From Candidatus Woesearchaeota archaeon (GTDB taxonomy: Archaea > Nanobdellota > Nanobdellia > Woesearchaeales > ARS49): a stretch of 64,000 nucleotides of DNA. The stretch covers positions 38,126-102,125 of the forward strand of contig JACPID010000005.1 in the NCBI GenBank assembly GCA_016188265.1, written 5' to 3'. The first letter of the stretch is position 1; the number at the start of each line of letters is the position of its first letter. The translations under genes and the position numbers were made by a program. Shown here piece after piece: positions 3,987 through 38,000 of the stretch. The notes under the pieces are model-generated. The model was not told where the DNA came from. It did not search any database and was given only the letters and a program-made list of their open reading frames with translations.

Positions 3987-5834
3987 GTGGCAAATGTTAT
4001 GGTAGCCGTAGGGCCATTAAATTTTGGCAACTTATTTGGCTTGTATGCGCTTCTTACTATTGTGCCTCTGATTTTATTGTATTTAATTCGTCCAAAGCCT
4101 AAAATGATGACTATTCCTTCTTTGATGTTTTTTCTTAAAATGAGCGGCGCTAACAGAATAACTTCTTTTTTTAAGCAATTAACAAGAGACTGGCTTTTGT
4201 TTATTCAGCTTTTAATCTTGCTTTTACTAGCTCTTGCATTTACTGAACCGTTTACATATTACACGCATGATGTTTCTTCAGCAAATACTATTATTGTTTT
4301 AGATGTTAGCGCCAGCATGCAGGCAAAAGAAGGTTCACTTACAAGATTTGAAAAAGCAAAAAGTTTTGCAAAAGAATTATTAGGAGCTTCAAATACAATT
4401 GTTCTTGCAAAATATTATAGTGAAGTCGGTGTGCAGGATGTTAGTAGAAGTGATGCTGTTAAATATCTTAACACATTACAGCCTTATGAATCTCCAACCA
4501 GGCTTGGAGACGCTATATTAACTGCAGGAGGAATTCTTGAAAAAAAAGGAACTAGTGAAGGAAGAATTATTGTTATTTCTGATTTTTTAAATACTGAAGG
4601 CCAAGACGCAACAACTACGCGCGCTGTGCTTCAATCAAAAAACATGCTTATTGATTTTATTAATGTAGCAGAGCAGGGTGAAAAAGAAAATGTTGGCTTT
4701 ATTGATCTTTTTATTGATAGAGATTCAACAACAGCGTACATCAAGAATTTTGCTGGTAAAGAAAAAACAATAACTTTAACAGTCGGTAATCTTACTAAAA
4801 ACATTAATATGGCTGCCAAGGCTGTTGAGCCGTTTTCTTTCCAGACAGTTGGCGGAGTAACAAAACTGCAAATAACTCCCTTTGATGAGTTTCCAGTTGA
4901 TAATGAGTTATTTGTTAGCGCTCCTAAAACTCTTAAAGTTCCTGTTCAGTTTATATCAAATGATAAATCAGAATTTTTGTACCAAGCATTAGAAGCATCG
5001 AGAATAGCTCAGGTTGATGTTGCAGAACCTCCGATTGTTCCAAAAGGGGGTTATCAGATATTTATATTAAATAATGTTGATCCTAGAGAAATTCTTACAG
5101 GAACAATGGAGGAGTTGTCAAGAGAAGTTGAAAATGGCGCAAGCATTATAATAACTGCTCAGAAAAACATGAATGAAATTGATTACTCGCCAATTCTCCC
5201 ACTAACTTCAAAAGGATTGGGAAAGGCAAAAGATCTTTTAATTCAGCAAATTAATAGGTTTACAAAAAATATTGAGTTTGGAAGTGTTAAAGAGTTTATT
5301 CAATTATCTGAAGAGCATGGATTAACACCCATCATAAGCGCTGATAGTGATGTTATAGTTGGGCTTGCGAAAAAAGGAAGTGGAAAAATATTATATTATG
5401 GAATTCTTGAATCAGCAAATGAATTTCATTTTAGCCCAGGCTACCCTATTTTTTGGACTGAGATTATTAAATTTCTTACAGAAAAACAAGATTTAGAAAG
5501 TTTAAATGACAGGACAAAAAACACAATATTTCCAGGAGTTAAAATGCCAGTGGATTCTCCGCGTGGAAGGCTTCCTCCTGCACCTGCAGTTTTTTTAGAA
5601 AATCAAGGCTTATACCATTTGGGTGATGTAACTATTGCAGTAAATCTTCTTAATGAACAAGAAAGTGAAGTTTCTGTATTAGAAAAAGGAGAATATGAAT
5701 TAACTCCTAAAAGTTATGAATTAATGCCTGTAGAAGAAAAGCGTAAATTTGAAATTGATATGATTTTAATTATTTTAGGAAGTTTAATTTTGTTTTTTGA
5801 ATTAGTGTATGTTAAGCAAAGGGGTGATTTTTAG
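3987..5834 (+). CDS. BatA-like membrane protein with vWA domain
   Basis: Two N-terminal TM helices, a vWA MIDAS motif (IIVLDVSASM), and a C-terminal TM. GTG start at 3987 or ATG at 3999. Confidence 0.6.
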   Translation: MANVMVAVGPLNFGNLFGLYALLTIVPLILLYLIRPKPKMMTIPSLMFFLKMSGANRITSFFKQLTRDWLLFIQLLILLLLALAFTEPFTYYTHDVSSANTIIVLDVSASMQAKEGSLTRFEKAKSFAKELLGASNTIVLAKYYSEVGVQDVSRSDAVKYLNTLQPYESPTRLGDAILTAGGILEKKGTSEGRIIVISDFLNTEGQDATTTRAVLQSKNMLIDFINVAEQGEKENVGFIDLFIDRDSTTAYIKNFAGKEKTITLTVGNLTKNINMAAKAVEPFSFQTVGGVTKLQITPFDEFPVDNELFVSAPKTLKVPVQFISNDKSEFLYQALEASRIAQVDVAEPPIVPKGGYQIFILNNVDPREILTGTMEELSREVENGASIIITAQKNMNEIDYSPILPLTSKGLGKAKDLLIQQINRFTKNIEFGSVKEFIQLSEEHGLTPIISADSDVIVGLAKKGSGKILYYGILESANEFHFSPGYPIFWTEIIKFLTEKQDLESLNDRTKNTIFPGVKMPVDSPRGRLPPAPAVFLENQGLYHLGDVTIAVNLLNEQESEVSVLEKGEYELTPKSYELMPVEEKRKFEIDMILIILGSLILFFELVYVKQRGDF

Positions 5835-8269
5835 TGGCCTTTCACCACACGATTCAATTATTTTATGTTAAAGTTAATAATGCATTAAGTGTGAAATATT
5901 CTTGGATTTTACTGCTAATAATTCCTTTATTCTTTTTTTTCAGATGGCTTGTAAAAAAGGATTTTGTTAAATTAAAAGAAGAAGAACATATTGTAAGAAG
6001 GCGTTTAGTTCTTCAAAATGTTATAATTGCAACAAGAACTGTGATGTTCTTTTTTATTCTTCTTGCGCTTGCTGCGTATTATGCTGAAAAGCCTGTAGAA
6101 GTTAAAGGTGATCTTTTCTTAAAGATTTTAGTAGATAATTCAACAAGTATGGGTGTTTTTAAGCCAGTGTCTGAAAACTTGTTCACTGAATTAAAAAAAA
6201 ATATTAATGTTGAAATTGCTGAGATCGGAAAACCAGAGGAAAGCAATATAGGTGATGCTTTATTAAACAATCTTGCTCCTCAAGAAAGCATTCTTTTGAT
6301 AAGCGATGGCAATGCAAACTCAGGAATTCAATTAGGAGATGTTGTTTTATTTGCAACCACACTAAACAGCACTGTTAATGCATTAAAACTTGAACCTGAT
6401 AAAACAGATGTTAGTGTTTCAATTGCTGGCCCTGAAAAAACAACAGAAGATGTTGAAAGCACATTTACAGTTGTGTTAGAAAAAACAGGCCTTATTGACA
6501 GAGTTCCTTTAAAAGTAAAAATAGATGACAAAGTAGTATTAGAAACAGTTACAAGTGATTTACGCATTCAAGTTACAACAAAGCTTTCAGAGGGATTTCA
6601 CAGAATTAGTGCAGAAATAACTTTAACTGATTATTTTGAGAAAAACAATAAATTTTACAAAACAGTTCAGGTAGTGCCTCCGCCAAGAATTTTGTTTTAC
6701 ACAAAAAAAACAAATTCACCGCTTATTGAACTTTTAAAACAAGTTGTTCAAGTTGATGTTGTAATGTCGCTTCCTGACAATGCAGCTGATCTTAAGAAAT
6801 TATTAAATAAATATTATACTATTATAATAAATGATATACCTGCTAAGCATCTTAACAAGCATGTTAATACTTTGTTTGAGTATTTAAGCGATGGAAATGG
6901 CATGATTGTTTTTGGCGGATATGAAAGCTATAGCGAAGGGCTATATAGAGGGTCATCTTTTGAACAATTATTAATGCCTGTTTTTGTAGGAAAAGCAGGA
7001 AGAAAAGAAAGCGATACAAATGTTGTTCTTTTAATTGATATTTCTGCAAGCACTGGAGCAGCAATTGTTGAAGGCGGTCAAAAAGCTGTTGATATTGAAA
7101 AGGCGCTTGCGTTAGGAGTCATGAAAACATTGCGCCCAAATGTTCTTGTTGCTGTTTTTGCATTTAATACTCGGGCTATTCCAATAACGCCATTAACACG
7201 CTTGTTAGAAAAAAAAGCTGAAGTAGAAGATATGATCAGCCGTTTAGTTGATGTTGGAGGAACTGCAATAAGCTCTGGGTTGTTTGCAGCTAATGCAGTG
7301 CTTGACTCAGCTTCTGGCAGTAAAAACATAATAATTATTTCAGATGGAAAAACTCATGATGGCGGTGCGTGGAAAGATGCTGCTAAAAGATCAGCTCAAA
7401 AAGGAATAAAAATTTATACTGTTGGAGTTGGAGAAAAAACAAATGAAGAGGTAATGCTTGAACTTGCAAGAATTGGCAGAGGCATTTATTTTAGAGCAAA
7501 CCAATTGTCTCGTTTAAAAATATTATTCGGAGAAGTTGAAGAAACAGGAGCTGAACACCCTTCTCTTTCTTTGCTTGATAGCAATCATTTTATTACTCAA
7601 GATCTTGAAGATATAAGCGCCACTATTTACGGCTATAATGATGTTGTTCAAAAAACCTCAGCACAGCTTCTTGCTACAAGCAGTTCTGGTGATCCGTTGT
7701 TAGCAGTGTGGCGTGTTGGTTTGGGAAGAATTGCTGCATTTGCAACTGATGATGGCACTGTGTGGTCTGGAGATTTGATGAGCAAGAAAAATTCAAAATT
7801 ATTAATAAGATCCGCCAATTGGGCAATAGGCGAGCCAGATAGAAAAAATGAAGAAGCAAGAACATACAAGGATAGTAGAATAGGTGTTCCAACAATTATT
7901 CAAGTAAAATCACTTAAGCAGCCTATTTCAGAAAAATATACTTTTTATAAAACTGAAGAAAATACATATCAAGCAGCAGTTACTCCTGTAGAAACAGGCT
8001 TTTTATCAATTCTTGATGGAATTATTGCAAGCAATTATCCAGAAGAATACCAGCATCTTGGCATGAATCCTGAACTAGAAGGAGTGGTTCTTTCAACAGG
8101 CGGGAATGTATTTGATCAAGATGATATAGAAAGTATTCTTGATCATGTAAAATCGCATTCTAAAAGAGTTGTTACACAAAAGGTTATTATTCGCTGGCCA
8201 TTTATATTAATTGCACTCATAATTTTCCTTATGGAAATATTTATAAGGAGATATTTAAGAAATGTATAG
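5834..8269 (+). CDS. BatB-like membrane protein with two vWA-like domains
   Basis: N-terminal TM; DxSxS motifs at LVDNSTSMG and VVLLIDISASTG, with downstream T and D residues (ISDGKTHDG); C-terminal TM. GTG start overlaps the upstream stop. Confidence 0.55.
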   Translation: MAFHHTIQLFYVKVNNALSVKYSWILLLIIPLFFFFRWLVKKDFVKLKEEEHIVRRRLVLQNVIIATRTVMFFFILLALAAYYAEKPVEVKGDLFLKILVDNSTSMGVFKPVSENLFTELKKNINVEIAEIGKPEESNIGDALLNNLAPQESILLISDGNANSGIQLGDVVLFATTLNSTVNALKLEPDKTDVSVSIAGPEKTTEDVESTFTVVLEKTGLIDRVPLKVKIDDKVVLETVTSDLRIQVTTKLSEGFHRISAEITLTDYFEKNNKFYKTVQVVPPPRILFYTKKTNSPLIELLKQVVQVDVVMSLPDNAADLKKLLNKYYTIIINDIPAKHLNKHVNTLFEYLSDGNGMIVFGGYESYSEGLYRGSSFEQLLMPVFVGKAGRKESDTNVVLLIDISASTGAAIVEGGQKAVDIEKALALGVMKTLRPNVLVAVFAFNTRAIPITPLTRLLEKKAEVEDMISRLVDVGGTAISSGLFAANAVLDSASGSKNIIIISDGKTHDGGAWKDAAKRSAQKGIKIYTVGVGEKTNEEVMLELARIGRGIYFRANQLSRLKILFGEVEETGAEHPSLSLLDSNHFITQDLEDISATIYGYNDVVQKTSAQLLATSSSGDPLLAVWRVGLGRIAAFATDDGTVWSGDLMSKKNSKLLIRSANWAIGEPDRKNEEARTYKDSRIGVPTIIQVKSLKQPISEKYTFYKTEENTYQAAVTPVETGFLSILDGIIASNYPEEYQHLGMNPELEGVVLSTGGNVFDQDDIESILDHVKSHSKRVVTQKVIIRWPFILIALIIFLMEIFIRRYLRNV

Positions 8270-8279
8270 TAAATAGAAG

Positions 8280-8789
8280 ATGGCATTTATTACGAAAAAC
8301 GCAAATTTGTTTTTATTATTTTTAATAGTATTAGCTTCTATTGGTTTAGTTGCAGCAACTATTTTTTTTCAGTATAAATTTCAGAATGTAAATCAGAAAC
8401 TGCTTCAAAAAGCAGTTGAATTACAAGATATTAGTAAAGAACTTGAGCAAAAACGCACATTGTTAGAAGGCATTCAACTTGATTTAAGTAAAAAAGAAAA
8501 AAGAGAAGAAGAATTATCAAGTAAGTATGTAGAAGTTGAAGAAGAAAAACAAAAAGTTCAAGAAAAAGCTCAAAGTTTAGAGCAAAAAACAGATATTTTA
8601 GAAGGAAAAGTCGGAGATCTTCAAATAGTTAATCAAAGATTAGAAGCAGTCAATCAAGACCAGGCAAAAGCAATACTTTCTCTAAATAATGATGTTGGCA
8701 TATTAAAAACTCAGAATTTACAATATCAGGCTCAAATTGCAAGATTAGCAAGTGACTTAGCAACTTGCCAAAGCCAGCAAGGAGCTTAA
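8280..8789 (+). CDS. membrane-anchored coiled-coil protein
   Basis: One N-terminal TM followed by about 130 aa of heptad-rich K/E/Q sequence. Confidence 0.4.
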   Translation: MAFITKNANLFLLFLIVLASIGLVAATIFFQYKFQNVNQKLLQKAVELQDISKELEQKRTLLEGIQLDLSKKEKREEELSSKYVEVEEEKQKVQEKAQSLEQKTDILEGKVGDLQIVNQRLEAVNQDQAKAILSLNNDVGILKTQNLQYQAQIARLASDLATCQSQQGA

Positions 8790-8791
8790 TA

Positions 8792-9568
8792 ATGAAAAAA
8801 ATTGAACAAGCGCTAAGGGAATTAAAAAGTACAGTAACTCTTATGGCTTTGTTTAGCAGTATAATTGATTCTTTTGTTGTTTTTCTTGCATCATTTCTTT
8901 TATGCATAATACTTCTTATTCCTTGGTTTTACTCATTTATTCCTCTTTTTCTTTATGGAATCATCCATATATATTCAGAACTTAAAACAGCAAGGTTTTT
9001 GTATATAGAGAAAAAATTGCCTTTTTTATATGAACAGCTTCGAACAGTTGCAGATAATATTCGCAAAGAACATGAAGTTATTGAAGCGCTTAATGAAGAA
9101 GTTCTTATTAAGTTGCGTGCAGTTAAAAATTCTGTATTCTTAAGATTTGGCAAAATTACTAACAGAATCACAACTCTTGTTATTCTTTCATTTCTTATAA
9201 TTATTCTTTCAGCAATGAATATTCAATTATTTGATGTTCCTAAAGCACTTAAAAATGTTCAAAAACAAATTGAGCAGCCTGAGCCAGAAGAACAATACCA
9301 GCAATTAATAACTGGCGGTGAAGATATTATTTTTGGAAATAAATCTGTTGCAGAATTAGGATATCAAGAATTAGAAATTAAGCTTAATCCAATTCAGAGT
9401 GAGATTGATATTGATAAAATTAAAGAACCTGAAAAACTTTCTTTTGAATCAAAATACAGGCCTAAAGAGATTATTGCAACTACAGATATTAGTTATGAAG
9501 AAAACATACCTAAAGATTATCAAAATATTGTTAGGGATTATTTTAGCGGAATAACAACTGCAAGATAA
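8792..9568 (+). CDS. membrane protein (probable ATG start at 8792 with GGAG RBS; the track start at 8765 is TTG)
   Basis: Multiple hydrophobic helices; part of the Bat-like operon. Confidence 0.4.
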   Translation: MKKIEQALRELKSTVTLMALFSSIIDSFVVFLASFLLCIILLIPWFYSFIPLFLYGIIHIYSELKTARFLYIEKKLPFLYEQLRTVADNIRKEHEVIEALNEEVLIKLRAVKNSVFLRFGKITNRITTLVILSFLIIILSAMNIQLFDVPKALKNVQKQIEQPEPEEQYQQLITGGEDIIFGNKSVAELGYQELEIKLNPIQSEIDIDKIKEPEKLSFESKYRPKEIIATTDISYEENIPKDYQNIVRDYFSGITTAR

Positions 9569-9653
9569 ATTGTGTTATAATAAGATTTTATGCCAAAAGA
9601 TATAAATAATACAGCAAATAAAAAGATATGTAAATCATGAAAAGGAGGGATGA

Positions 9654-12155
9654 ATGATGCGTGTTGAAGATGCAAAAAAAGCGTTGGATAAAGTATTTTC
9701 AGAGATGCAGAAAGTAATAGTAGGCCAGGAAGAGCTGCTTGGTGAAATGCTTATATCATTATTGTGCAACAGCCATGCGCTCTTGGAAGGTTATCCTGGA
9801 CTGGCTAAAACATTGGCAGTTAAAACATTATCAGAATTAATGGAATTAAAATTCACTCGTGTACAAAACACTCCTGATTTAATGCCTTCAGATATCACAG
9901 GAACTTATATTATTGAAGAAACAGGTTCAGGCAAAAGAAATTTTAAATTTCAGCCAGGGCCTGTTTTCACAAACATTCTCCTTGCAGACGAGATTAACAG
10001 AGCAACACCAAAAACTCAGTCTGCTTTATTAGAAGCAATGCAGGAAAGGCAAGTTACTGTTGGAAACATGACTTACAAGCTTGAACATCCTTTTTTTGTT
10101 TTAGCCACACAAAACCCTATTGAGCAAGAAGGAAGCTTGGCTTTGAGCGAGTCTGTATTTGTCAATGGGCAATTAAGAACTGGCAAGGAATTATTTGAAA
10201 TTGCTAAAGATAAGTGCATTGCAGAGGATGAAAAAGGAATAAAGTTATATGATTTAAATGCTTGGACTTTTGCATTGAACACATCTGGGAAATTAGAAAA
10301 ACAAAAATGTATGTTGTATACACTGCCTTATAAAGATGAACTGATAGCATTAACAACAAAGACAGGTAAACGATTGATTGTTACAAAAAACCACCTGTTC
10401 TTAATTAACGAAAATGGAATTATTTCTTGGAAGAAAGCTGAAGAGTTAACAAAAAAAGATTACCTTGTTAATCCAAAAAAACTCCCCCCTATAACTCCTT
10501 TAAATGTTATTTCACACGATGAAGCAATTTTGAGGATGAAAAATAAACAAGTTCCAAGTGAAATAACATTTGATGAAGATTTCGCGTTTTGGATTGCATT
10601 TTTGCTATCTGATGGGTACATCGGAGAAAAATGTGTGGAAGCTGTGCAAAAGAATTACCCGGAAGCTCTTGATAGATTTGTTGAAATATCAAAGAAGTAT
10701 GGATTTAACCCGAATGTGTTTACTAATAGAGGTTGCAGGTATGCTAGAATTTATTCAAAACCTCTTGTTGAGTATTTAAGCATTCGCTTCGGGGTAACTG
10801 GAGGAAAAGATAAAGAAATTCCTTCTTGGTTCTTGAGATTCTCTTCAGAAATGACTAAAGAATTCTTGAAAACATTTATTTCTTTAGAGTCTTCACTCAG
10901 AGATAATAGAATAGTTTTCACACAAAAAAGTGAGAAAAATACCAGCATAATATCGTACATGTTATTGCGTGAAGGAATTATTTCTTGGATAAAACACGAC
11001 GGAAGAGTTTTTAGGCTTAAGATTCAAGGTGAAGACTTCCTGAAGTTTATTAAACAATTTGGTTGGATATCTAATGACAAAATAAGGATGATTGATTTAA
11101 ACAGAGCGATTAAGTCAAGTTTTAGGGTTGTTCCAGTTGATAGAAAAGCAATTTTAAGATCAGTTGAACTTCTAGGGCTTAATAGCTTCCATACATTAAG
11201 CGGACATAAAAGTATTACTTCAAGAACTTGGTATGGAAGTTATAAAGGAATAAAAGAAGGAGAGACTGTGATGTCTGTTGATTCATTAAGAGATTTTGTT
11301 AATGATTTAAGAAATGAATTAAACAGCAGATACACTCTGGATTTCTCGAATTTATTGGAAAGTGATCCTAGAACATTTGCTGCAGGCATAGGAATGCCTA
11401 TGACTGAAATTTCACAACATCTTGAGATCTCAAAAAATCAAGTTTGGAGATTATACAGCGAAAACCATTCTTCAAGTGCAGTGCAAATCAAAACCTTCCT
11501 TAAAGAACAACAAACAATTTGCTTAGAAGAAGCTGAAAAACTCCTTCACTATTGTGAAGCATTGCTTAGCGAAGATGTATATTACGATGGGATTAAATCT
11601 ATTGAGTATGTTGAGCCGCAAGGAATGGCTTTTGGTTTAACTGTTCCGGGTTTACAAAACTATCTTGCAGGTTTTGGCGGATGTGGAATAAATCATAATA
11701 CATATCCTTTACCAGAAGCGCAGAGTGATCGTTTTCTGCTTAAAATAAAAGTTACTTATCCAAGCACTCAAGAGGAAATAGAAATTGTTAATCGAGTTGC
11801 TGAAGGAGCAGAAAATCCTGAACTAAAAACAGTTCTTAAGAAACAAGATTTGCTTGCAATGCAGAATTTAACAAAAAAAATTCCTTTGGCAAATGATATT
11901 AAAAAATATGCTGTTGATCTGGTTGTAGCAACTAGAGCGAAAAAAGATTTAATTGAATATGGAGCTTCACCAAGAGCATCTATTGGTCTTGTTTTAGCTG
12001 CAAAAGCGCGAGCTCTTCTTAATGGAAGAAAATATGTCAGCAAAGATGATATTAAAAATATGGCTTTTCCAATTTTAAGGCATAGAATTGTTCCAACTTT
12101 TGAAGCTGAACGCCAAGGACTTAGTGTAGAAGATATTATTAAAAATCTACTATGA
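9654..12155 (+). CDS. MoxR-family AAA+ ATPase interrupted by an intein (extein about 311 aa)
   Basis: Walker A GYPGLAKT and LLADEINRA (Walker B/sensor) in the N-extein; TYPLPEAQSDRF plus the conserved MoxR C-terminal region (VSKDDIKN...ILRHRI) in the C-extein; strong AGGAGG RBS. Confidence 0.8.
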   Translation: MMRVEDAKKALDKVFSEMQKVIVGQEELLGEMLISLLCNSHALLEGYPGLAKTLAVKTLSELMELKFTRVQNTPDLMPSDITGTYIIEETGSGKRNFKFQPGPVFTNILLADEINRATPKTQSALLEAMQERQVTVGNMTYKLEHPFFVLATQNPIEQEGSLALSESVFVNGQLRTGKELFEIAKDKCIAEDEKGIKLYDLNAWTFALNTSGKLEKQKCMLYTLPYKDELIALTTKTGKRLIVTKNHLFLINENGIISWKKAEELTKKDYLVNPKKLPPITPLNVISHDEAILRMKNKQVPSEITFDEDFAFWIAFLLSDGYIGEKCVEAVQKNYPEALDRFVEISKKYGFNPNVFTNRGCRYARIYSKPLVEYLSIRFGVTGGKDKEIPSWFLRFSSEMTKEFLKTFISLESSLRDNRIVFTQKSEKNTSIISYMLLREGIISWIKHDGRVFRLKIQGEDFLKFIKQFGWISNDKIRMIDLNRAIKSSFRVVPVDRKAILRSVELLGLNSFHTLSGHKSITSRTWYGSYKGIKEGETVMSVDSLRDFVNDLRNELNSRYTLDFSNLLESDPRTFAAGIGMPMTEISQHLEISKNQVWRLYSENHSSSAVQIKTFLKEQQTICLEEAEKLLHYCEALLSEDVYYDGIKSIEYVEPQGMAFGLTVPGLQNYLAGFGGCGINHNTYPLPEAQSDRFLLKIKVTYPSTQEEIEIVNRVAEGAENPELKTVLKKQDLLAMQNLTKKIPLANDIKKYAVDLVVATRAKKDLIEYGASPRASIGLVLAAKARALLNGRKYVSKDDIKNMAFPILRHRIVPTFEAERQGLSVEDIIKNLL
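10134..11699 (+). mobile_element. intein (522 aa) with LAGLIDADG homing-endonuclease domain inside MoxR
   Basis: The host sequence NPIEQEG|TYPLPEA is split by the insert. The insert begins with Ser (SLALSESVFVNG, block A), has TxxH (IVTKNHLFL, block B), a LAGLIDADG-like block (FWIAFLLSDGYIGEK), and ends GINHN followed by a +1 Thr. Boundaries are in frame (10134 and 11699). Confidence 0.75.
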
Positions 12156-13024
12156 TTGACATATCATTCCTTAAACAGCTTGATCGTTTGAGCTTGGTAA
12201 TCAACAAAAGAATAACTTCACAATATACTGGAGAACGCGCAACAAAATATACTGGCCAAGGCTTAATCTTTAAAGATTACACTATTTATGCTCCTGGTGA
12301 AGATTTTCGCGCAATTGACTGGAAAGTATTTGGAAGAACTGATAAACTATTTATTAAAAGATTTGAAGAAGAGAGAAATCTAACAATACACATAATAATT
12401 GATTTTAGCGCAAGTATGGATTTTAAAACTAGCAAGTTTAAAAAATCAGAATATGCAGCCATGCTTGCAATTGGATTTGCGTATATGGCTTTAAAGAATA
12501 ATGAAAGATTTGTTGTTTCTACTTTTGCAGAAGGTCTTGACATGTTCAGGCCTAGAAGAGGCAAAAGGCAATTAATGATTTTACTAGACCATTTGAATAA
12601 AAGAACAGCTCAGGGAATTACTAATTTTGAAAAATCAATTTCACAATATAAAGCATTAATTAATACAAAAAGCATGATTGTAGTGATTTCCGATTTTCTC
12701 TATGATGTAGAACAAGTTAAAAATACTTTAGCTAAATTTAAGAATCATAAAGTAAAGCTTATTCAAGTTCTTGACCCTATGGAAGTTGATTTGAATGTTG
12801 AAGGTGATTTTCGTTTAAGAGATCTTGAGACTAAAGAACAATTAAGAACATATATTTCTGGTTTTATGAGAAAAGAGTATGGGAAAAAATTAAGCCAGCA
12901 CCAGATTAATATCAATAATGCAGTAGATCAAATAGGCGCTGAATTTTATTCTTTTTCAACAGAAAAACCTATTTTTGATGCTTTTTATGAAGTCAGCCAG
13001 CACCAACACATGCATTTAGGTTAA
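12152..13024 (+). CDS. DUF58 protein (MoxR partner, vWA-like)
   Basis: FKDYTIYAPGEDFRAIDWKVFGRTDKLFIKRFEEE and IIDFSASMDF are DUF58 hallmarks; ATGA overlap with moxR. Confidence 0.7.
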   Translation: MIDISFLKQLDRLSLVINKRITSQYTGERATKYTGQGLIFKDYTIYAPGEDFRAIDWKVFGRTDKLFIKRFEEERNLTIHIIIDFSASMDFKTSKFKKSEYAAMLAIGFAYMALKNNERFVVSTFAEGLDMFRPRRGKRQLMILLDHLNKRTAQGITNFEKSISQYKALINTKSMIVVISDFLYDVEQVKNTLAKFKNHKVKLIQVLDPMEVDLNVEGDFRLRDLETKEQLRTYISGFMRKEYGKKLSQHQININNAVDQIGAEFYSFSTEKPIFDAFYEVSQHQHMHLG

Positions 13025-16635: not shown

Positions 16636-17134
16636 TTTTCTCCAATATAATACTATACGTAAAAACAATTGAAAATATAAATATTTGTATTACAGGGCAC
16701 TGACGCAGTGGTTTCGCTACATTTATTAAAGTGCTAAAATTACTTATGATTATGCATGATTTAAGAAAGGATTTAATTATTATGGGTGTTGCAATCGCTG
16801 TTTTGCTTGGGTCAGGGAATTTATCATCGTCGGACTTAGGTTTTTTTGTTTTTTTATACGTTTTTCAAATACGCAAAATTATGAATTCTGCGTATTATAA
16901 AAACGCAAGATTTAGAATATGGGTTGTACTTTAATAATTGATATGAGCTTAGTTCAATTGTTAAAAAATCAGCATCAGGGTTCAATACAGACAATGACTG
17001 AACCCTAAAGAAAAACATCAGAACCGAAAAATCTGGTTTTGAAAATCAAAAACAAAAAGTTGCATAACTCCAAAATTTAAAGCCTACATGCCTTAAAACA
17101 AGAATTCAAAAAGAACAGGGTTCAATGCTCAAAA

Positions 17135-17205
17135 TGCGCCGACCGGGAATTGAACCCGGATCTCAACCTTGGCAAGGTTGTGTTCTACCGTTGAACCATC
17201 AGCGC
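17135..17205 (-). tRNA. tRNA-Gly (anticodon GCC), 71 nt, CCA not encoded
   Basis: Cloverleaf read from the reverse complement: GCGCTGA acceptor, GTTC/GAAC D-arm, CAACC-TTGCCAA-GGTTG anticodon arm, CCGGG-TTCAATT-CCCGG T-arm, discriminator A. Confidence 0.85.
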
Positions 17206-17306
17206 AGAACTTTACGAGTTCCCTGCGTTCACTCAGTAAAGTTTTTAATTGTGAAGATATTTTACGGTATTATTAAAACTTTTGCTGGCAAAAGAGGTTT
17301 ATCATT

Positions 17307-24285: not shown

Positions 24286-24359
24286 CTGGGATCGGGGAGA
24301 TTCGAACTCCCGACCACACGCACCCCAAGCGTGCATTCTACCAAGCTGAACTACGACCC
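24286..24359 (-). tRNA. tRNA-Pro (anticodon GGG), 74 nt
   Basis: Reverse complement GGGGTCG-TA-GTTC...GAAT-G-CACGC-TTGGGGT-GCGTG-TGGTC-GGGAG-TTCGAAT-CTCCC-CGATCCC-A; TATA-like TTTTTAAGG about 30 nt upstream on the minus strand. Confidence 0.8.
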
Positions 24360-24439
24360 CGAATTAATACAGTAATACCTGGTTGTACCTTAAAAAGTTT
24401 TACAGAAAATCACTTGAACTTACATAAATAATATTTCTA

Positions 24440-25875: not shown

Positions 25876-26868
25876 ATGCCTCTCTTGCCTTTTGAAAAAA
25901 TAAAACGCAATGTTTTAGTTTTATGTGAAAGCAAAACTGATCCTAAGCATGGATGTTTTCCTGAAAACTTTTCTGTTGAAACACTTCTAAATTATGGGGT
26001 TATTAATTTAAACAAGTATAAAGGCCCAACTTCACATCAAGTATCAGATATTGTTAAAAAAGTTTTAAATGTTCAAAAAGCAGGGCATGGTGGAAGTTTA
26101 GACCCTCATGTTACAGGTGTTTTACCAATTGCGCTTGGTCGTGCAACAAAAGTTGTCGAGTTCATTCTTAAAGCTGGAAAAGAATATGTTTGCTTAATGC
26201 ATTTACACAAAAAAGTTTCTAAAGATATTATTCTTACTGCTTTTAAAGGCATGATTGGAGAGATAACACAATTGCCTCCTAGAAAAAGTGCAGTTGTTAG
26301 GAGTTGGAGAAAACGTAATATTTACTACACAGAAATATTAGAAATCAACGGACAAGATGTTCTTTTAAAAATAGGATGCCAAGCAGGTACGTATATTAGA
26401 AAATATATTCATGATTTTGGAATATTAATAGGAATTGGTGCGCATATGGCTGAGTTAATAAGAACAAAAGCAGGCCCTTTTAATTATGCTAACTGGGTGA
26501 CAATTCAGGATTTAGAAGATGCTTATTATTTTTGGAAAGAAGAACATAATGAGAAACTAATAAGAAATTGCATTAAACCAGTGGAGTTTGCAGTTTCTCA
26601 TCTGCCAAAAGTTTGGGTTTTTGATTCTAGTGTTAATACATTATGTCATGGCGCTAGTCTTAAAATTCCAGGAATTTCGAAAATTCATTCTGGAATTCAA
26701 AAACAAGAAATTGTAGCAGTCATGACTCTTAAAGATGAACTAATAGCAGTAGGCATTGCTCAAATATCAAGTGAACAAATAATGTCTGAAAAAAAAGGAG
26801 TTGCTATAAAAACTCAAAAGGTTTTCATGCAGCCAGGAACTTATTTAAAACAGCAAACAAGCAGTTAA
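25876..26868 (+). CDS. cbf5: H/ACA RNP pseudouridine synthase Cbf5 (TruB family, PUA domain)
   Basis: GHGGSLDPHVTGVLPIALGRATK TruB catalytic motif; C-terminal PUA-like region. Confidence 0.85.
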   Translation: MPLLPFEKIKRNVLVLCESKTDPKHGCFPENFSVETLLNYGVINLNKYKGPTSHQVSDIVKKVLNVQKAGHGGSLDPHVTGVLPIALGRATKVVEFILKAGKEYVCLMHLHKKVSKDIILTAFKGMIGEITQLPPRKSAVVRSWRKRNIYYTEILEINGQDVLLKIGCQAGTYIRKYIHDFGILIGIGAHMAELIRTKAGPFNYANWVTIQDLEDAYYFWKEEHNEKLIRNCIKPVEFAVSHLPKVWVFDSSVNTLCHGASLKIPGISKIHSGIQKQEIVAVMTLKDELIAVGIAQISSEQIMSEKKGVAIKTQKVFMQPGTYLKQQTSS

Positions 26869-26936
26869 CTTTATAAACCCTTATAATTTCTCACTGTTAA
26901 CACACTTGTAAAAATAATATTAGGGGGTATATAAGT

Positions 26937-28214
26937 ATGGCAAAAGAAAAACCACATATTAATCTTGTAATTGTAGGACATGTTGATCATGGTAAATCTA
27001 CCACTGTTGGCAGGCTTTTATTTGATTCAGGAAATATTCCAGAGCAAGAAATGAGAAAGTTAAAAGAACTTGCTCAAGAGCTTGGTAAAGGAGGATTTGA
27101 ATTTGCATTTGTCATGGACCAGCTTGCTGAAGAAAGAAAACGTGGAGTTACTATTGATTTAGCTCATAAAAAATTTAATACACCTAAATATGAATTTACA
27201 ATTATTGATGCTCCAGGTCATAAAGATTTTATTAAAAACATGATTACAGGAGCAAGCCAAGCTGATGCTGCAGTCATTGTTGTAGGAAGCGAAGGTGTTC
27301 AAGCACAAACTAGAGAGCATGTTTTCTTATGCAAAACATTAGGAGTTAAACAAGTTATTGTTGCAGTTAATAAAATGGACTTAAGCAAATATGATCAAGC
27401 TAAATTTGAAGCTCTTAAAAAAGACGTTTCAATATTATTAAAAACATATGGCTACCCAGCTGATCAAATAACTTTTGTTCCTTTAGCGTCATTCTTGGGA
27501 GATAATGTTGTAAAGAGAAGTGCAAACATGCCTTGGTATAAAGGACCAACACTTCTTGAATCTCTGGATACTTTAAGTGTTCCAGAAAAACTAACTGCAT
27601 TTCCTTTAAGATTGCCTTTACAAGATGTTTACAACATTAAAGGAATTGGTGTTGTTCCAGTTGGAAGAGTTGAAACTGGAGTTATGAAAGTTGGAGATAA
27701 AATTACTGTTGTTCCAGCAAGAGAAGGCAAAGGGATTAGCGGTGAAGTTAAGTCAATAGAAATGCATCATGAAGCAATTCAGCAAGCAGAAGCTGGAGAT
27801 AATGTGGGATTTAATGTTCGTGGCATTGAACAAAAAGATATTGCAAAAGGAGATGTTGTTGGGCATTCAAATAAAGTGCCTCCTGTTGCAAAAGAGTTTA
27901 CTGCACGAATTGTTGTAATCAATCATCCAACAGTCATTACACAAGGTTACACGCCAGTTTTCCATATTCATACAGCACAAGTTGCATGCCAGTTTGTTGA
28001 GCTTGTTCAAAAAATTGATCCAGCAACTGGAACAGTGCTTGCTGAACATCCTGACTTTATTAAGAATGGAGATACAGCAATTGTCAAAGTAAGGCCAGTA
28101 CAGCCTGTTGTTATTGAAAAGCAGCAAGATAATCCAAAACTATCAAGATTTGCAATTCGCGATAGTGGTCAAACAGTTGCAGCAGGCATGTGTGTAGATT
28201 TAGTGCTTAAATAA
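26937..28214 (+). CDS. tuf: translation elongation factor aEF-1alpha
   Basis: [14 protein letters not shown] and NKMD GTPase motifs plus the archaeal EF1A C-terminal domains. Confidence 0.95.
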
Positions 28215-35027: not shown

Positions 35028-38000
35028 TTGCTGCTTGTTTTATTGGCTGTTGTTATTTCATCAATTATTTTTGTTTATGCTGTTAATTTTGGAGATTCAA
35101 GCCCTGACACTGGCGAAGCAGACGGAGGAGCAAACAGAGGAACATTTGCTGTAGGAACAGGAACATTTACAGATACTAGATCTGATAATGATATTTATTT
35201 TGGCATTGAAAGAGCTATTGGAACTGCAGCAGCAGCTAATCAGACAGTAGAGTTTAACATTAGTATATTAAGCACTAATTCTTCTATTAGAATTACTGAA
35301 ATTAATCTAAGCGTTAAGTATTGTCATGCTAGAAGGGTTAGTAATATTTGTAATAGTGGAGCAGGATCTGCTCCTCAAGGAACTAATGGGTCTATGAGTA
35401 TTTTTATTTTTAACTCTACTGCTTTTGAAAAAATTGGAAGTCTTAATTCTACAACAACTGCTACTGAAATAGAAATAAGAGCTAATGCTTCTGGGAGAAA
35501 TAATTATGGCATTTACAATAATTCTCAAGGATATGTTAATATTAGCTTTGAGTTTGCATGGAGTGGTGCAGGAAGAAGCGCTTTTTTAAATGATCATACT
35601 AATTTAACGATTTCTTATGACAGGGCTCCTGTTGTTAATTTAGTTTCTCCTGTAAATAATAGTTTAGTAAATCCTGGTGAGATAAACTTTACTTGTAGTG
35701 CTACAGATGATTTTGGTTTAGCTAATATAACTTTATTTCATAATTTAAATGGTAGTTTTGTTGCTAATCAAACAAACACGAGTTTTGGAGGAACAAGCAA
35801 TTCAACAACTTTTACTTTAACAAATGTTTCTGAAAGAGTGAATGGTTTGTGGAATTGTTTTGCTTTTGATAATGCTAATTTATCAAGTTTTGCTGGTTCA
35901 AATTTTACAATAGATACTAGTTTCTTGAATATTAGTGTTGTTGGATGTAATCCTAGCAACACTGATATTAACCAAAGTACTATTTGTAATGCTACAATAA
36001 CAGATAATACTGGAGTTAGTGTTGTTCAAGCTAATGTAACAATGCCTAATGGCACTATTCTAGTTCAGACTCTTTCTAATACAACCAGTAACTATTTTTT
36101 TAATTTTACAGATACTAACTTAACTGGAAGGTATAATATTACTTGGATTGCTAATGATTCTTTAAATAATAACAAAACTGATGTAACGGGTTTTTTTACA
36201 GCTGGCAATGTAGTTCCTAATGTAACGCTCATTAATCCAGTTAATGGTTTTAATACAAGTGTGATTAATCAAACCTTTACTTTTAATGTTACAGATGATT
36301 TTGATAGTTCAGTGTCTTGTTCATTGATATTTAATGATATTACTAATCAAACTAATTCGTCTGTTGGTGTTAATGCTAATAGAACATTTGTTCTTAATAA
36401 TATTGTTGATGGCCAGAATAATTGGAGTGTTTCTTGTGCTGATAGTGGTGGAAAATCAGATCAGCCGGGAAATAGAAGAATTAATATTGATACAAAATCT
36501 CCGGAATTTATTAGTTTAACAACAGTTCCTGATGATGCTGATGGTCTTGATAACGGTGTTGATATTCTTGTTAGGGCTAATGTTACTGATAATACAACTG
36601 CTGTTAATAATAGTCTTGTTTTTTTAGATTTTAAAAGATCAACTCAAACTAAATTCACTCAAAAGCAAATGACTTTTAATTCTAGCACAGGATTTTTTGA
36701 AGCAATATTCAATCAAAATCAAGCAGCAACTTATAATTTAAGAATTAATGCAACAGATATAGTTAGAAATTCAGGCATAAGCAATACTATTGATATTACT
36801 TTAGATACTGAACGTACTTGGGTTGATAGGCCAACTCAGTTGGTATTGCCCGCACCTAATTTTAATCTTAATGGAAGCGATCTTTATACAGTAAATAATA
36901 CTGGTGATTTTAATCAACAATTTACTTTAGCCTCAAATTATTCACTTACATTCTTTAATGAAAGTGCAACTTTTATTTTAACAGCTAAAGAAATAAAAAC
37001 AATAAATGTTACAGCAACTGCCACTGATCAAACATTCACTAGATTTACACTTAACACAAGCACGAATAATGCAGAGCCTCTTTCTAGAACAACTAAAGCA
37101 ACAATTGTTGTTGCTCCTAATCAGCCAATACTTGTTGCAGAAATTACATCTGCACCAGATGTTGTAACACAAGGACAAATTGGCGTAAGCCTTATTGCTG
37201 AGCTAGAAAATGTTGGTGAAGGCAATGCAACAGATGTTGTTTTTAGTTTTGATTTACCTAGTGACTGGTTGATAAGAGCAGGTAATCAAAGCTCAAATAT
37301 AGGCAATATGACTTCAGGAGATCTTGCTACATTAGTTTTAGAAGTTAACATATCTAACAATGCTGTAGTTGCTAATCAGACAATTGTTGCTAATGCTACT
37401 GGAAATAATCAAACAGGAAGTAATATCGCTCCTTTAGGATTAATTTTTGAAGATACTAAAATAGTTGAAGTAAGAGGAAAACCTGGAATTCTCGGAGCAG
37501 GTGGTGCAGCAGCAGGAGCAGCTGCAGCAGCAGGAGCAGCAGCTGCAGCAGCAGGTGGCCAGCCTTTTCCTACGCCTCCTCTTGTTAGAAGTTTGTTTAC
37601 TGAAGAGTTTTTAGAAACAGAAGAAGTAGTTCACTTGACTAGAGGGGAAGAAACAAGTTTTCCTTTAAAAATTACTAATGTTTTTGGCAACACTACATTG
37701 TTTGATGTTAAATTAAGTATTCAAGGATTTTTAGCTCAATACTTAGATCATACTCCTGAAAAGCTTGATGATATTAAGTATGGTTTTAGCAAGTCATTTA
37801 TTATTAATGTTGCTAGTCCTGCTTATAGAAAAAGAGGGGTTCATAATTTAGTATTTAACATTAAAGGTTTTGCTACTGGCAGGTTTATTATTGATAGAAA
37901 TGGAACTCCTGAAGAAATTAATGCAGTTATTGATTTTACTGAAAAAAGAAATGTTACACTTTATATTCATGAAATCAATCCATTAATAGCAGAACAAGCA

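What the first reader, a model, noticed from the sequence alone, without database searches (positions are those of the whole stretch)
10134..11699. 522-aa LAGLIDADG intein inside the MoxR AAA+ ATPase
The MoxR extein is contiguous across NPIEQEG|TYPLPEAQSDRF, a conserved MoxR block, and is split by an in-frame 1566-nt insert. The insert has an N-terminal Ser and a TxxH block B, a homing-endonuclease-like block, and a terminal HN with a +1 Thr. Inteins usually sit in replication, recombination or nucleotide-metabolism proteins. A MoxR chaperone-like ATPase host, and a +1 Thr nucleophile, are both uncommon. The insert sits in the catalytic core, so splicing is required for function.
Basis: seen in the sequence. 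Interest (0 to 1): 0.6.

Follow-up and report, generated by a model that had tools for sequence, protein, structure and literature searches.

The report
Homing intein splitting a MoxR ATPase
The 1566-base insert is a genuine self-splicing protein element (an intein with a homing endonuclease) in the ATP-binding core of a MoxR chaperone-like ATPase of a Woesearchaeota archaeon; I found no paper describing this host protein as an intein host, but the same element is common in archaeal sequence databases, so it is a solid, fairly ordinary new member of a known kind.

Summary
ORF 9654-12155 (+) encodes an 833-aa MoxR precursor. Residues 161-682 (nt 10134-11699) form an in-frame 522-aa insert between NPIEQEG and TYPLPEAQSDRF.

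The insert passes the curated cut-offs for Pfam Intein_splicing, Pfam LAGLIDADG_3 and NCBIfam intein_Nterm. It has Ser1, block B T84xxH87, H521-N522 and Thr+1. Its AlphaFold model (pLDDT 94) matches solved archaeal endonuclease-bearing inteins (TliVMA, PI-PkoII, PI-PfuI).

With the insert removed, the 311-aa extein is a complete MoxR. It aligns without a gap to PDB 2R44 and to 120 intein-free Woesearchaeota MoxR proteins of 309-312 aa, one of them in a syntenic operon.

The allele is not rare. At least 103 protein clusters and 42 species-representative genomes carry an intein at the same site (DPANN archaea, haloarchaea). All have Ser1 and Thr+1, and the set includes five mini-inteins. Inteins are often more alike than their host exteins, which points to horizontal homing.

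I found no paper on MoxR inteins. Thr+1 is simply the conserved extein Thr, and Ser1/Thr+1 inteins are a known minority.

Verdict: a new member of a known kind, of modest interest. Minor oddities are the missing 'NX' histidine, Gly at the block F Asp position and an extra Xre-like HTH region.

The parts
9654..12155 (+). MoxR-family AAA+ ATPase precursor gene (833 aa plus stop), identical to NCBI MBI2564652.1 'AAA family ATPase [Candidatus Woesearchaeota archaeon]'
9654..10133 (+). N-extein, aa 1-160. Contains Walker A GYPGLAKT (nt 9789-9812), Walker B LLADEINR (9978-10001) and the sensor-1 region LATQN (10101-10115). It ends NPIEQEG.
   Evidence: Motif names come from general AAA+/MoxR knowledge.
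10134..11699 (+). Intein, 522 aa, class 1 type: Ser1 (AGC, nt 10134-10136) to Asn522 (AAT, nt 11697-11699)
10134..10487 (+). N-terminal splicing (Hint) lobe, intein aa 1-118. Block A is SLALSES. Block B is VTKNH at nt 10380-10394 (T84, H87).
   Evidence: TIGR01445 match. S1 and H87 are invariant and T84 is T or S in 102 of 103 homologs.
10569..11063 (+). LAGLIDADG homing-endonuclease domain, intein aa 146-310. Motif 1 is FWIAFLLSDGYIG (nt 10587-10625, acidic D160). Motif 2 is FLKTFISLESSL (nt 10863-10898, acidic E252).
   Evidence: Pfam LAGLIDADG_3. PDB sequence alignment to the VMA intein 7qss/7qsu. Foldseek hits to I-DmoI, PI-PfuI and PI-PkoII. Conservation of the acidic residues.
11064..11567 (+). 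Extra, mostly helical region between the endonuclease and the C-terminal splicing lobe, intein aa 311-478. It includes an Xre/lambda-repressor-like helix-turn-helix module and is probably an accessory DNA-binding region.
11568..11699 (+). C-terminal splicing lobe, intein aa 479-522. Block F is AFGLTVPGLQNYLAG (nt 11628-11672). Block G is GGCGINHN (nt 11676-11699).
   Evidence: (alignment to DnaB and TFIIB mini-inteins)
11700..12155 (+). C-extein, aa 683-833 plus stop. It starts with Thr+1 (ACA, nt 11700-11702) in TYPLPEAQSDRF (the putative Arg finger is the R of DRF). It also holds sensor 2 GASPRAS (nt 11961-11981) and the AAA lid.
3987..13024 (+). Surrounding Bat-like operon: BatA/VWA (3987-5834), VWA (5834-8269), small coiled-coil ORF (8280-8789), DUF7502 (8765-9568), MoxR with the intein, and DUF58 (12152-13024).
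   Evidence: The same gene order with an intein-free 311-aa MoxR is seen in L001.

Best explanation
The insert is a full-length class 1 intein that carries a LAGLIDADG homing endonuclease. It sits in the second region of homology of a MoxR AAA+ ATPase, six residues after the sensor-1 Asn (N154) and ten residues before the putative Arg finger (the R of DRF).

Inferred mechanism, by analogy with characterised Ser1 inteins:
1. After translation, Ser1 makes an N-O acyl shift, assisted by block B T84/H87.
2. The Thr+1 hydroxyl attacks the resulting oxyester.
3. Asn522 cyclises, assisted by H521, and releases the intein.
4. An O-N shift leaves the native peptide bond G160-T161. The product is a normal 311-aa MoxR that works with the neighbouring DUF58 and VWA proteins.

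The freed intein, or the precursor, is predicted to act as a site-specific endonuclease. It would cut intein-free moxR alleles at the conserved ...GAGCAAGAAGGA|ACNTATCCTTTACCAGAAGC... site, so that repair copies the intein in (homing). An extra helical/HTH region probably adds DNA contacts.

What is shown: the anatomy, homology, fold, conservation of catalytic residues, the existence of empty and mini-intein alleles, and the intein/extein decoupling. What is inferred: that splicing and endonuclease cleavage actually occur.
For: - **Exact in-frame insert** with Ser1, TxxH, HN and Thr+1.
- **Curated profile matches above cut-off:** Intein_splicing, LAGLIDADG_3 and intein_Nterm.
- **Sequence hits to solved inteins:** VMA 2e-9, DnaB and TFIIB mini-inteins, PI-PkoII.
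- **Structure:** the AF2 model (pLDDT 94.2, pTM 0.90) gives Foldseek top hits to TliVMA (5.5e-25), PI-PkoII, PhoVMA and PI-PfuI.
- **Spliced extein is a complete MoxR:** AAA_3 matches 1-131/131, 2R44 matches at 8e-90 with no gap at the junction, and 120 of 120 closest intein-free homologs read NPxEQEGTYxLPEAQxDRF and are 309-312 aa long.
- **Syntenic empty allele:** L001 has a CDS of identical length (936 nt). Identity is 84% (76 of 90) over the 90 nt around the site, counted from the alignment, against 73% for the whole gene.
- **Same-site inteins elsewhere:** 103 homologous inteins at the same site have S1, H87 and N522 invariant and H521 in 102 of 103. Five are mini-inteins of 190-197 aa.
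- **Endonuclease under selection:** the HE domain is as conserved as the splicing lobes (70% against 65% and 74%). The acidic residues are kept: D/E in 93 of 97 and E in 95 of 98.
- **Horizontal movement:** intein identity exceeds extein identity for many pairs (P0015 73% against 60%, P0050 60% against 42%). The nearest exteins to this one are intein-free.
- **Breadth:** 42 species-representative genomes carry the allele.
Against: - There is no experimental evidence of splicing or DNA cleavage for any member of this family.
- The positions that align with the block F Asp and His of DnaB-type inteins are Gly (invariant) and Gln here.
- The 'NX' histidine reported as a signature of Ser1 oxyester inteins (PMC10189870) is absent. 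By HMM alignment it falls on L64, and no His is conserved between positions 40 and 80 in any of the 103 homologs. The catalytic environment therefore differs from the best-studied cases.
- The sets of intein-bearing and intein-free homologs were collected by different queries, so the nearest-neighbour comparison is biased and is not a formal phylogenetic test.
Confidence: 0.9

Rival explanations
1. The intein splices, but its endonuclease is no longer active in this lineage. The element persists only by vertical descent because precise deletion is rare. This is the late stage of the homing cycle.
For: Mini-inteins without an endonuclease exist at the same site, so the endonuclease is lost in this family. 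A few homologs have non-acidic residues at D160 or E252. The closest intein relative is only 73% identical, so no very recent transfer is visible. GC content is 33.5% for the intein, 35.4% for the exteins and 31.3% for the window, which shows no compositional anomaly.
Against: In this copy both LAGLIDADG motifs keep their acidic residues. The endonuclease domain is as conserved across the family as the splicing lobes, which implies selection on it. Inteins are more similar than their host exteins in many pairs.
Confidence: 0.3
2. The intein has been co-opted as a conditional switch. Splicing is held back until some signal (temperature, redox, metal or partner binding) arrives, and this controls the supply of active MoxR for the VWA/DUF58 system.
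For: The insertion lies between sensor 1 and the Arg finger, so the precursor should be inactive. Two non-nucleophilic cysteines, C59 and C517, are present in 99 of 103 homologs. Regulatory roles have been proposed for inteins at ATPase sites (PMC4760082).
Against: Nothing specific supports it. In related inteins of other hosts, the residues aligned to C59 are mostly small ones (A, S, T), which suggests an ordinary core-packing position. Closely related genomes do without the intein, so it is not needed for MoxR regulation.
Confidence: 0.08
3. The insert is a splicing-dead, permanently retained insertion domain (a degenerate intein or Hint-like domain) in a MoxR paralog.
For: The block F Asp position is Gly and the NX His is absent.
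Against: Ser1, H87 and N522 are invariant and H521 and Thr+1 nearly so across 103 homologs spanning 30-73% intein identity. A retained domain of 522 aa between sensor 1 and the Arg finger would break the AAA+ fold. Intein-free orthologs occupy the same operon.
Confidence: 0.03
4. The insert is an assembly or binning artefact: a chimeric contig that joins an intein-bearing gene fragment to moxR.
For: The source is a metagenome-assembled genome.
Against: The reading frame is seamless. The same architecture recurs on more than 100 independent contigs and in complete genomes of cultured haloarchaea (Salinirubellus litoreus NZ_CP147841).
Confidence: 0.01

Closest known systems
Archaeal endonuclease-bearing class 1 inteins with solved structures: Thermococcus litoralis and Pyrococcus horikoshii VMA inteins (7qss, 7qst), PI-PkoII (2cw7), PI-PfuI (1dq3)
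   Same: The overall architecture is the same: a Hint splicing domain split by a two-motif LAGLIDADG endonuclease, plus an extra domain. Foldseek E-values are 5.5e-25 to 2e-18 with TM-scores of about 0.6-0.76. The sequence match to the VMA intein is 2e-9. The host is also a P-loop NTPase.
   Different: Sequence identity is only 15-17%. The host protein and insertion site differ. The nucleophiles are Ser1/Thr+1. The extra region is an Xre-like HTH/helical module that has no Foldseek match in the PDB.
Ser1/Thr+1 (oxyester) class 1 inteins, e.g. the Methanocaldococcus TFIIB mini-inteins (5o9i, 5o9j) and the cysteine-less PolB inteins (PMC10189870; 9hth)
   Same: The nucleophile pair is Ser1/Thr+1 and the block B His is invariant. 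The C-terminal lobe matches the TFIIB mini-inteins 5o9i/5o9j over intein aa 474-519 (E 3.8e-6 and 6.3e-6).
   Different: The NX-motif [K/R]-His described for this subgroup is absent family-wide. L64 aligns with it and Tyr62 is invariant nearby. This intein is not cysteine-free. It also carries an endonuclease.
Inteins of other archaeal P-loop proteins: aIF2-gamma and MCM (CDC21) inteins
   Same: These are the nearest non-MoxR relatives of the intein in a search of 1.84 billion representatives (E 1e-29 to 1e-18, 22-31% identity). Some MCM inteins also carry an HTH domain (HTH_3 in P0257). They likewise target conserved NTPase motifs (PMC4760082, PMC10643990).
   Different: The host and site differ. 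Of about 35 MCM proteins in that set, none has an intein between sensor 1 and the Arg finger.
MoxR AAA+ ATPases of MoxR-DUF58-VWA (Bat-like) operons, e.g. Cytophaga hutchinsonii MoxR (PDB 2R44)
   Same: The spliced extein matches 2R44 at E 8e-90 over residues 11-311, with all AAA+ motifs present. The operon context includes DUF58 and VWA proteins.
   Different: The gene is interrupted by the intein. The 120 closest intein-free relatives (72-77% identity) are not.

Membership tests
Class 1 intein | N-terminal nucleophile (Cys, Ser or Thr) at intein position 1 | tested here: met
   Ser1 (AGC, nt 10134-10136). It is invariant in 103 of 103 same-site homologs.
Class 1 intein | Block B TxxH | tested here: met
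   T84-K-N-H87. H87 is invariant and T84 is T or S in 102 of 103.
Class 1 intein | C-terminal His-Asn followed by a Cys, Ser or Thr at +1 | tested here: met
   H521-N522 then Thr+1. N522 is in 103 of 103 and H521 in 102 of 103. Thr+1 is in all.
Class 1 intein | Hint fold and profile match | tested here: met
   PF14890 scores 65.2 bits against a cut-off of 35.8. TIGR01445 scores 30 against 24.5. The AF2 model gives Foldseek matches to solved inteins.
Class 1 intein | The extein is contiguous and functional-looking after removal, and intein-free alleles exist | tested here: met
Class 1 intein | Protein splicing demonstrated | not testable with these tools
   This needs expression and mass analysis.
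Class 1 intein | Block F Asp and His as in DnaB-type inteins (common but not universal) | tested here: not met
   G501 (invariant) and Q508 (Q 63, H 30, K 10) align with the Asp and His of the DnaB mini-intein. This feature is not strictly defining.
Class 3 intein (considered) | No N-terminal nucleophile, plus the Trp(B:12)-Cys(F:4)-Thr(G:5) triplet | tested here: not met
   Ser1 is invariant. Position B:12 is F89, the F:4-equivalent is G501 and G:5 is H521.
Ser1 oxyester intein subgroup with the NX motif (Pasch et al. 2023, PMC10189870) | Ser1 with Ser+1 or Thr+1 | tested here: met
Ser1 oxyester intein subgroup with the NX motif (Pasch et al. 2023, PMC10189870) | Conserved [K/R]-His about 20 residues upstream of the block B Thr | tested here: not met
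   The [KR]H of related inteins aligns with T63-L64. No His is conserved at positions 40-80 in the 103 homologs. This rests on sequence alignment only and was not checked in 3D.
LAGLIDADG homing endonuclease (double-motif, intein-borne) | Two LAGLIDADG helices, each ending in an acidic residue | tested here: met
   LLSD160G and SLE252S. PF14528 scores 32 bits against a cut-off of 22.5. D/E is kept in 93 of 97 and E in 95 of 98 endonuclease-bearing homologs.
LAGLIDADG homing endonuclease (double-motif, intein-borne) | Alpha-beta-beta-alpha-beta-beta-alpha fold duplicated | tested here: met
   Secondary structure of the model over aa 148-309. Foldseek hits to I-DmoI, I-Tsp061I and PI-PfuI.
LAGLIDADG homing endonuclease (double-motif, intein-borne) | Site-specific cleavage of the intein-free allele | not testable with these tools
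   This needs an in vitro cleavage assay. Indirect support is that intein identity exceeds extein identity.
MoxR family AAA+ ATPase (host) | AAA_3 core plus AAA_lid_2, with Walker A/B, sensor 1, Arg finger and sensor 2 | tested here: met
   PF07726 scores 209.9 bits over 1-131/131 and PF17863 scores 75 bits on the spliced extein. 2R44 matches at 8e-90.
MoxR family AAA+ ATPase (host) | Genomic association with VWA or DUF58 partners | tested here: met
   DUF58 lies immediately downstream and two VWA proteins lie upstream. The arrangement is syntenic in L001.

The most novel reading that the evidence does not exclude
MoxR-site inteins could be a distinct mechanistic variant of oxyester (Ser1/Thr+1) inteins. 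They would activate Ser1 without the NX histidine and without the block F Asp, perhaps through the invariant Tyr62 and/or the near-invariant Cys59 and Cys517. Their splicing might also be conditional, gating the MoxR-VWA chaperone system in DPANN and halophilic archaea.
Probability: 0.07. Interest if true: 0.6.

Novelty: new member of a known kind. Interest (0 to 1): 0.3.

Why it matters
It adds a chaperone-like AAA+ ATPase, which is not a replication or repair protein, to the list of intein hosts. It also defines a new insertion point, between sensor 1 and the Arg finger. This fits the idea that inteins home to the most conserved nucleotide-binding motifs whatever the cellular pathway.

The family is large, at over 100 sequence clusters. 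It is naturally Ser1/Thr+1, includes mini-inteins of about 190 aa, and occurs in cultured haloarchaea. It could therefore supply new cysteine-independent inteins for protein engineering. It could also serve as a marker of gene flow among DPANN archaea and between DPANN and haloarchaea. None of this changes how inteins are understood.

Full report
**Observation**

The window has a single uninterrupted ORF at 9654-12155 on the + strand, encoding 833 aa. The heptapeptide NPIEQEG ends at residue 160 and TYPLPEAQSDRF starts at residue 683.

The segment starts SLALSES (Ser1, AGC). It contains VTKNH (T84xxH87) and two LAGLIDADG-type helices, FWIAFLLSDGYIG and FLKTFISLESSL. It ends GGCGINHN and is followed by Thr (ACA). 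GC content is 33.5% for the insert, 35.4% for the flanking coding sequence and 31.3% for the window, so nothing stands out compositionally.

**Is it an intein?**

Every test says yes.
- **Profiles.** Pfam Intein_splicing scores 65.2 bits (cut-off 35.8) and LAGLIDADG_3 scores 32 bits (cut-off 22.5). NCBIfam intein_Nterm scores 30 bits (cut-off 24.5). The other NCBIfam hits are to the intein-containing models of RFC, RNA polymerase A'', DnaB, V-ATPase and IF-2.
- **Solved structures by sequence.** The insert matches the VMA intein of entries 7qss/7qsu (2e-9, across the splicing lobe and endonuclease), the DnaB and TFIIB mini-inteins, and PI-PkoII.
- **Predicted structure.** An AlphaFold2 model built on 58 homologs is confident (mean pLDDT 94.2, pTM 0.90). 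It shows a beta-rich N lobe (1-114), a duplicated alpha-beta-beta-alpha-beta-beta-alpha endonuclease core (148-309), a helical region (314-477) and a beta-rich C lobe (482-521).
- **Fold search.** Foldseek against the PDB returns, in order, the TliVMA intein (E 5.5e-25), PI-PkoII, the PhoVMA intein and PI-PfuI. PI-SceI, mini-inteins and free LAGLIDADG enzymes such as I-DmoI follow.

**Is the host a bona fide MoxR once the insert is removed?**

In the precursor the AAA_3 domain is cut at profile position 124. In the spliced sequence it matches 1-131/131 at 209.9 bits, and AAA_lid_2 follows. The 311-aa extein aligns to the Cytophaga hutchinsonii MoxR structure 2R44 at E 8e-90, and the stretch ATQNPvEQEGTYPLPEAQ is read through without a gap.

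A search with the extein alone returned 120 best hits that are all intein-free. They are 309-312 aa long (103 are exactly 311 aa) and 72-77% identical. They come mostly from Woesearchaeota and Nanoarchaeia, and all read NPxEQEG-TYxLPEAQxDRF contiguously.

One of them (P0122, GCA_016213425.1, locus L001) lies in the same operon as in the window: BatA/VWA, VWA, a small ORF, DUF7502, MoxR and DUF58. Its CDS is 936 nt, identical in length to the spliced window CDS. Ungapped identity is 73% overall and 84% (76 of 90) in the 90 nt around the insertion point. That is what a conserved homing site should look like.

From general knowledge of AAA+ and MoxR proteins, the insertion point is six residues after the sensor-1 Asn (ATQN154) and ten residues before the Arg of DRF. 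I did not test those motif assignments beyond the alignments. A 522-aa insertion there should prevent formation of the inter-subunit ATPase site. 'Splicing is needed for activity' is therefore a sound inference, but it remains an inference.

**How common is it?**

The exact protein is NCBI MBI2564652.1, annotated only as 'AAA family ATPase [Candidatus Woesearchaeota archaeon]'.

Among the 120 best whole-protein homologs, 103 allowed both junctions to be extracted.
- All carry an insert at the same site that starts Ser-Leu and is followed by Thr.
- 102 of 103 end in His-Asn. One ends in Lys-Asn.
- Sizes are 190-197 aa (five mini-inteins) and 452-637 aa.

Some IMG entries are already named 'MoxR-like ATPase/intein/homing endonuclease'.

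A scan of one genome per GTDB species with two intein peptide patterns confirmed 42 loci with the same C-terminal junction (HN|T..LP..Q.DRF). Thirty-five of them also hold the N-terminal junction (G|SL); in the other seven it lies outside the locus. They come from Woesearchaeota, Nanoarchaeota, Aenigmatarchaeota, Nanohaloarchaeota and Halobacteria. The Halobacteria include the complete genome of Salinirubellus litoreus and Halorussus sp. AFM4. Halorientalis salina also has the allele (WP_136716815.1). Because only two patterns were used, 42 is a lower bound.

**Evidence about activity and mobility**

Across the 103 inteins, S1, L2, H87, W99, Y62, G501 and N522 are invariant. H521 is present in 102 of 103 and T84 is T or S in 102 of 103. 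This holds although intein identity to the window copy falls to 30%.

Among inteins of 500-540 aa, the endonuclease domain is as conserved (70% mean identity to the window copy) as the two splicing lobes (65% and 74%). The two catalytic acidic positions are kept: D/E in 93 of 97 and E in 95 of 98 endonuclease-bearing sequences.

Intein and extein histories are decoupled.
- The intein of P0015 is 73% identical while its extein is 60% identical.
- For P0050 the figures are 60% and 42%.
- The 25 exteins closest to the window's extein (75-77%) all lack the intein.

Empty, full-length and mini alleles co-occur within Woesearchaeota. Together this is the classic signature of a homing cycle with horizontal transfer. 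The caveat is that the two homolog sets were gathered with different queries, and I did not build trees.

**Relatives of the intein outside MoxR**

A full HMMER scan of 1.84 billion representatives gave 565 hits at E up to 0.001. After the MoxR inteins, the next best are inteins in aIF2-gamma and in MCM, at 22-31% identity. This is an ordinary member of the archaeal intein pool.

**Details that differ from textbook inteins**

1. The residues aligned to the block F Asp and His of DnaB-type inteins are Gly501 (invariant) and Gln508 (Q, H or K).
2. Pasch et al. (PMC10189870) reported that Ser1/Ser+1 and Ser1/Thr+1 inteins share an 'NX' motif, [K/R]-His, which is critical for splicing. Their set was 58 InBase sequences in 16 alleles. 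In an HMM alignment with related inteins that show RH or KH at that place, the motif falls on T63-L64 of this intein. None of the 103 MoxR inteins has a conserved His between positions 40 and 80, while Tyr62 is invariant and Tyr66 and Cys59 nearly so. This rests on alignment only.

**Comparison with what is known**

I found no paper that describes an intein in a MoxR ATPase. The searches cover open-access full text only, and supplements of the main survey were unavailable. The kind of element, its mechanism class, its endonuclease family and its preference for a conserved P-loop ATPase motif are all well established (PMC4760082, PMC10643990).

Thr+1 is not an adaptation of the intein. It is the conserved Thr of the MoxR motif TYPLPEAQ, which is present in all intein-free alleles. 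The site does not coincide with the MCM intein sites in my sample, because 34 MCM proteins have an uninterrupted sensor-1 to Arg-finger stretch.

**Verdict**

The finding is real and correctly interpreted. It is a new, or at least undescribed, host and insertion site for a known kind of mobile element, and it is widespread in DPANN and halophilic archaea. Interest is modest at 0.3. It is useful for intein catalogues, as a possible source of Ser/Thr-nucleophile inteins and mini-inteins, and as a gene-flow marker, but it is not surprising in principle.

The most novel reading still open has about 7% probability. It is that this family activates Ser1 in a non-canonical way, or splices conditionally to gate the MoxR-VWA system.

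Noticed in passing
[not shown]
   Followed up: partly
window 10305-10334 (intein aa 58-67) and 11634-11657 (aa 501-508): The family lacks the NX-motif histidine reported for Ser1 oxyester inteins; L64 aligns with it and Tyr62 is invariant. It also has an invariant Gly where DnaB-type inteins have the block F Asp.
   Followed up: partly
window 10308-10310 (Cys59) and 11682-11684 (Cys517): Two non-nucleophilic cysteines are conserved in 99 of 103 MoxR-site inteins, although the splicing nucleophiles are Ser and Thr. Related inteins have A, S or T at the Cys59 position, so it is probably a core-packing residue. The distance between the two cysteines could not be measured.
   Followed up: partly
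window 3987-13024; L001 1320-8815: The intein-bearing moxR sits in a conserved Bat-like operon: BatA/VWA with DUF7407 and DUF7408, a VWA protein with a GATase1-like domain, a small coiled-coil ORF, DUF7502, MoxR and DUF58. The intein-free relative in L001 has the same gene order.
   Followed up: yes
L025 (JACQKJ010000027.1) and L035 (JACQRE010000087.1): Contigs binned as bacteria (Candidatus Komeilibacteria, Candidatus Omnitrophota) carry the same MoxR-site intein, at 62% and 38% identity. This is either mis-binning of archaeal contigs or cross-domain spread.
   Followed up: no
L003, L007, L014, L017, L026, L027, L036: Several species-representative MAGs titled 'uncultured Methanosarcinales archaeon' carry inteins 60-73% identical to this Woesearchaeota copy, with Woesearchaeota-like junction sequences. 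The record titles may be unreliable.
   Followed up: no
P0046 / L023 (JASMHM010000002.1): One lineage has Lys instead of His as the penultimate intein residue (CGINKN|T). Everything else is conserved.
   Followed up: no
window 35028-38984 and 48915-50921: Two large ORFs have little or no annotation. The 1318-aa protein has only a weak Big_7 Ig-like hit, and the 668-aa protein has no Pfam match.
   Followed up: no
window 25876-28214, 59424-61319, 17134-17206, 24287-24360: Archaeal housekeeping genes fit the Woesearchaeota assignment: a Cbf5/TruB-PUA pseudouridine synthase, EF-1 alpha and FttA/aCPSF1 (KH plus beta-CASP). tRNA-Gly(GCC) and tRNA-Pro(GGG) are also present. None of the protein genes is interrupted by an intein.
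   Followed up: partly
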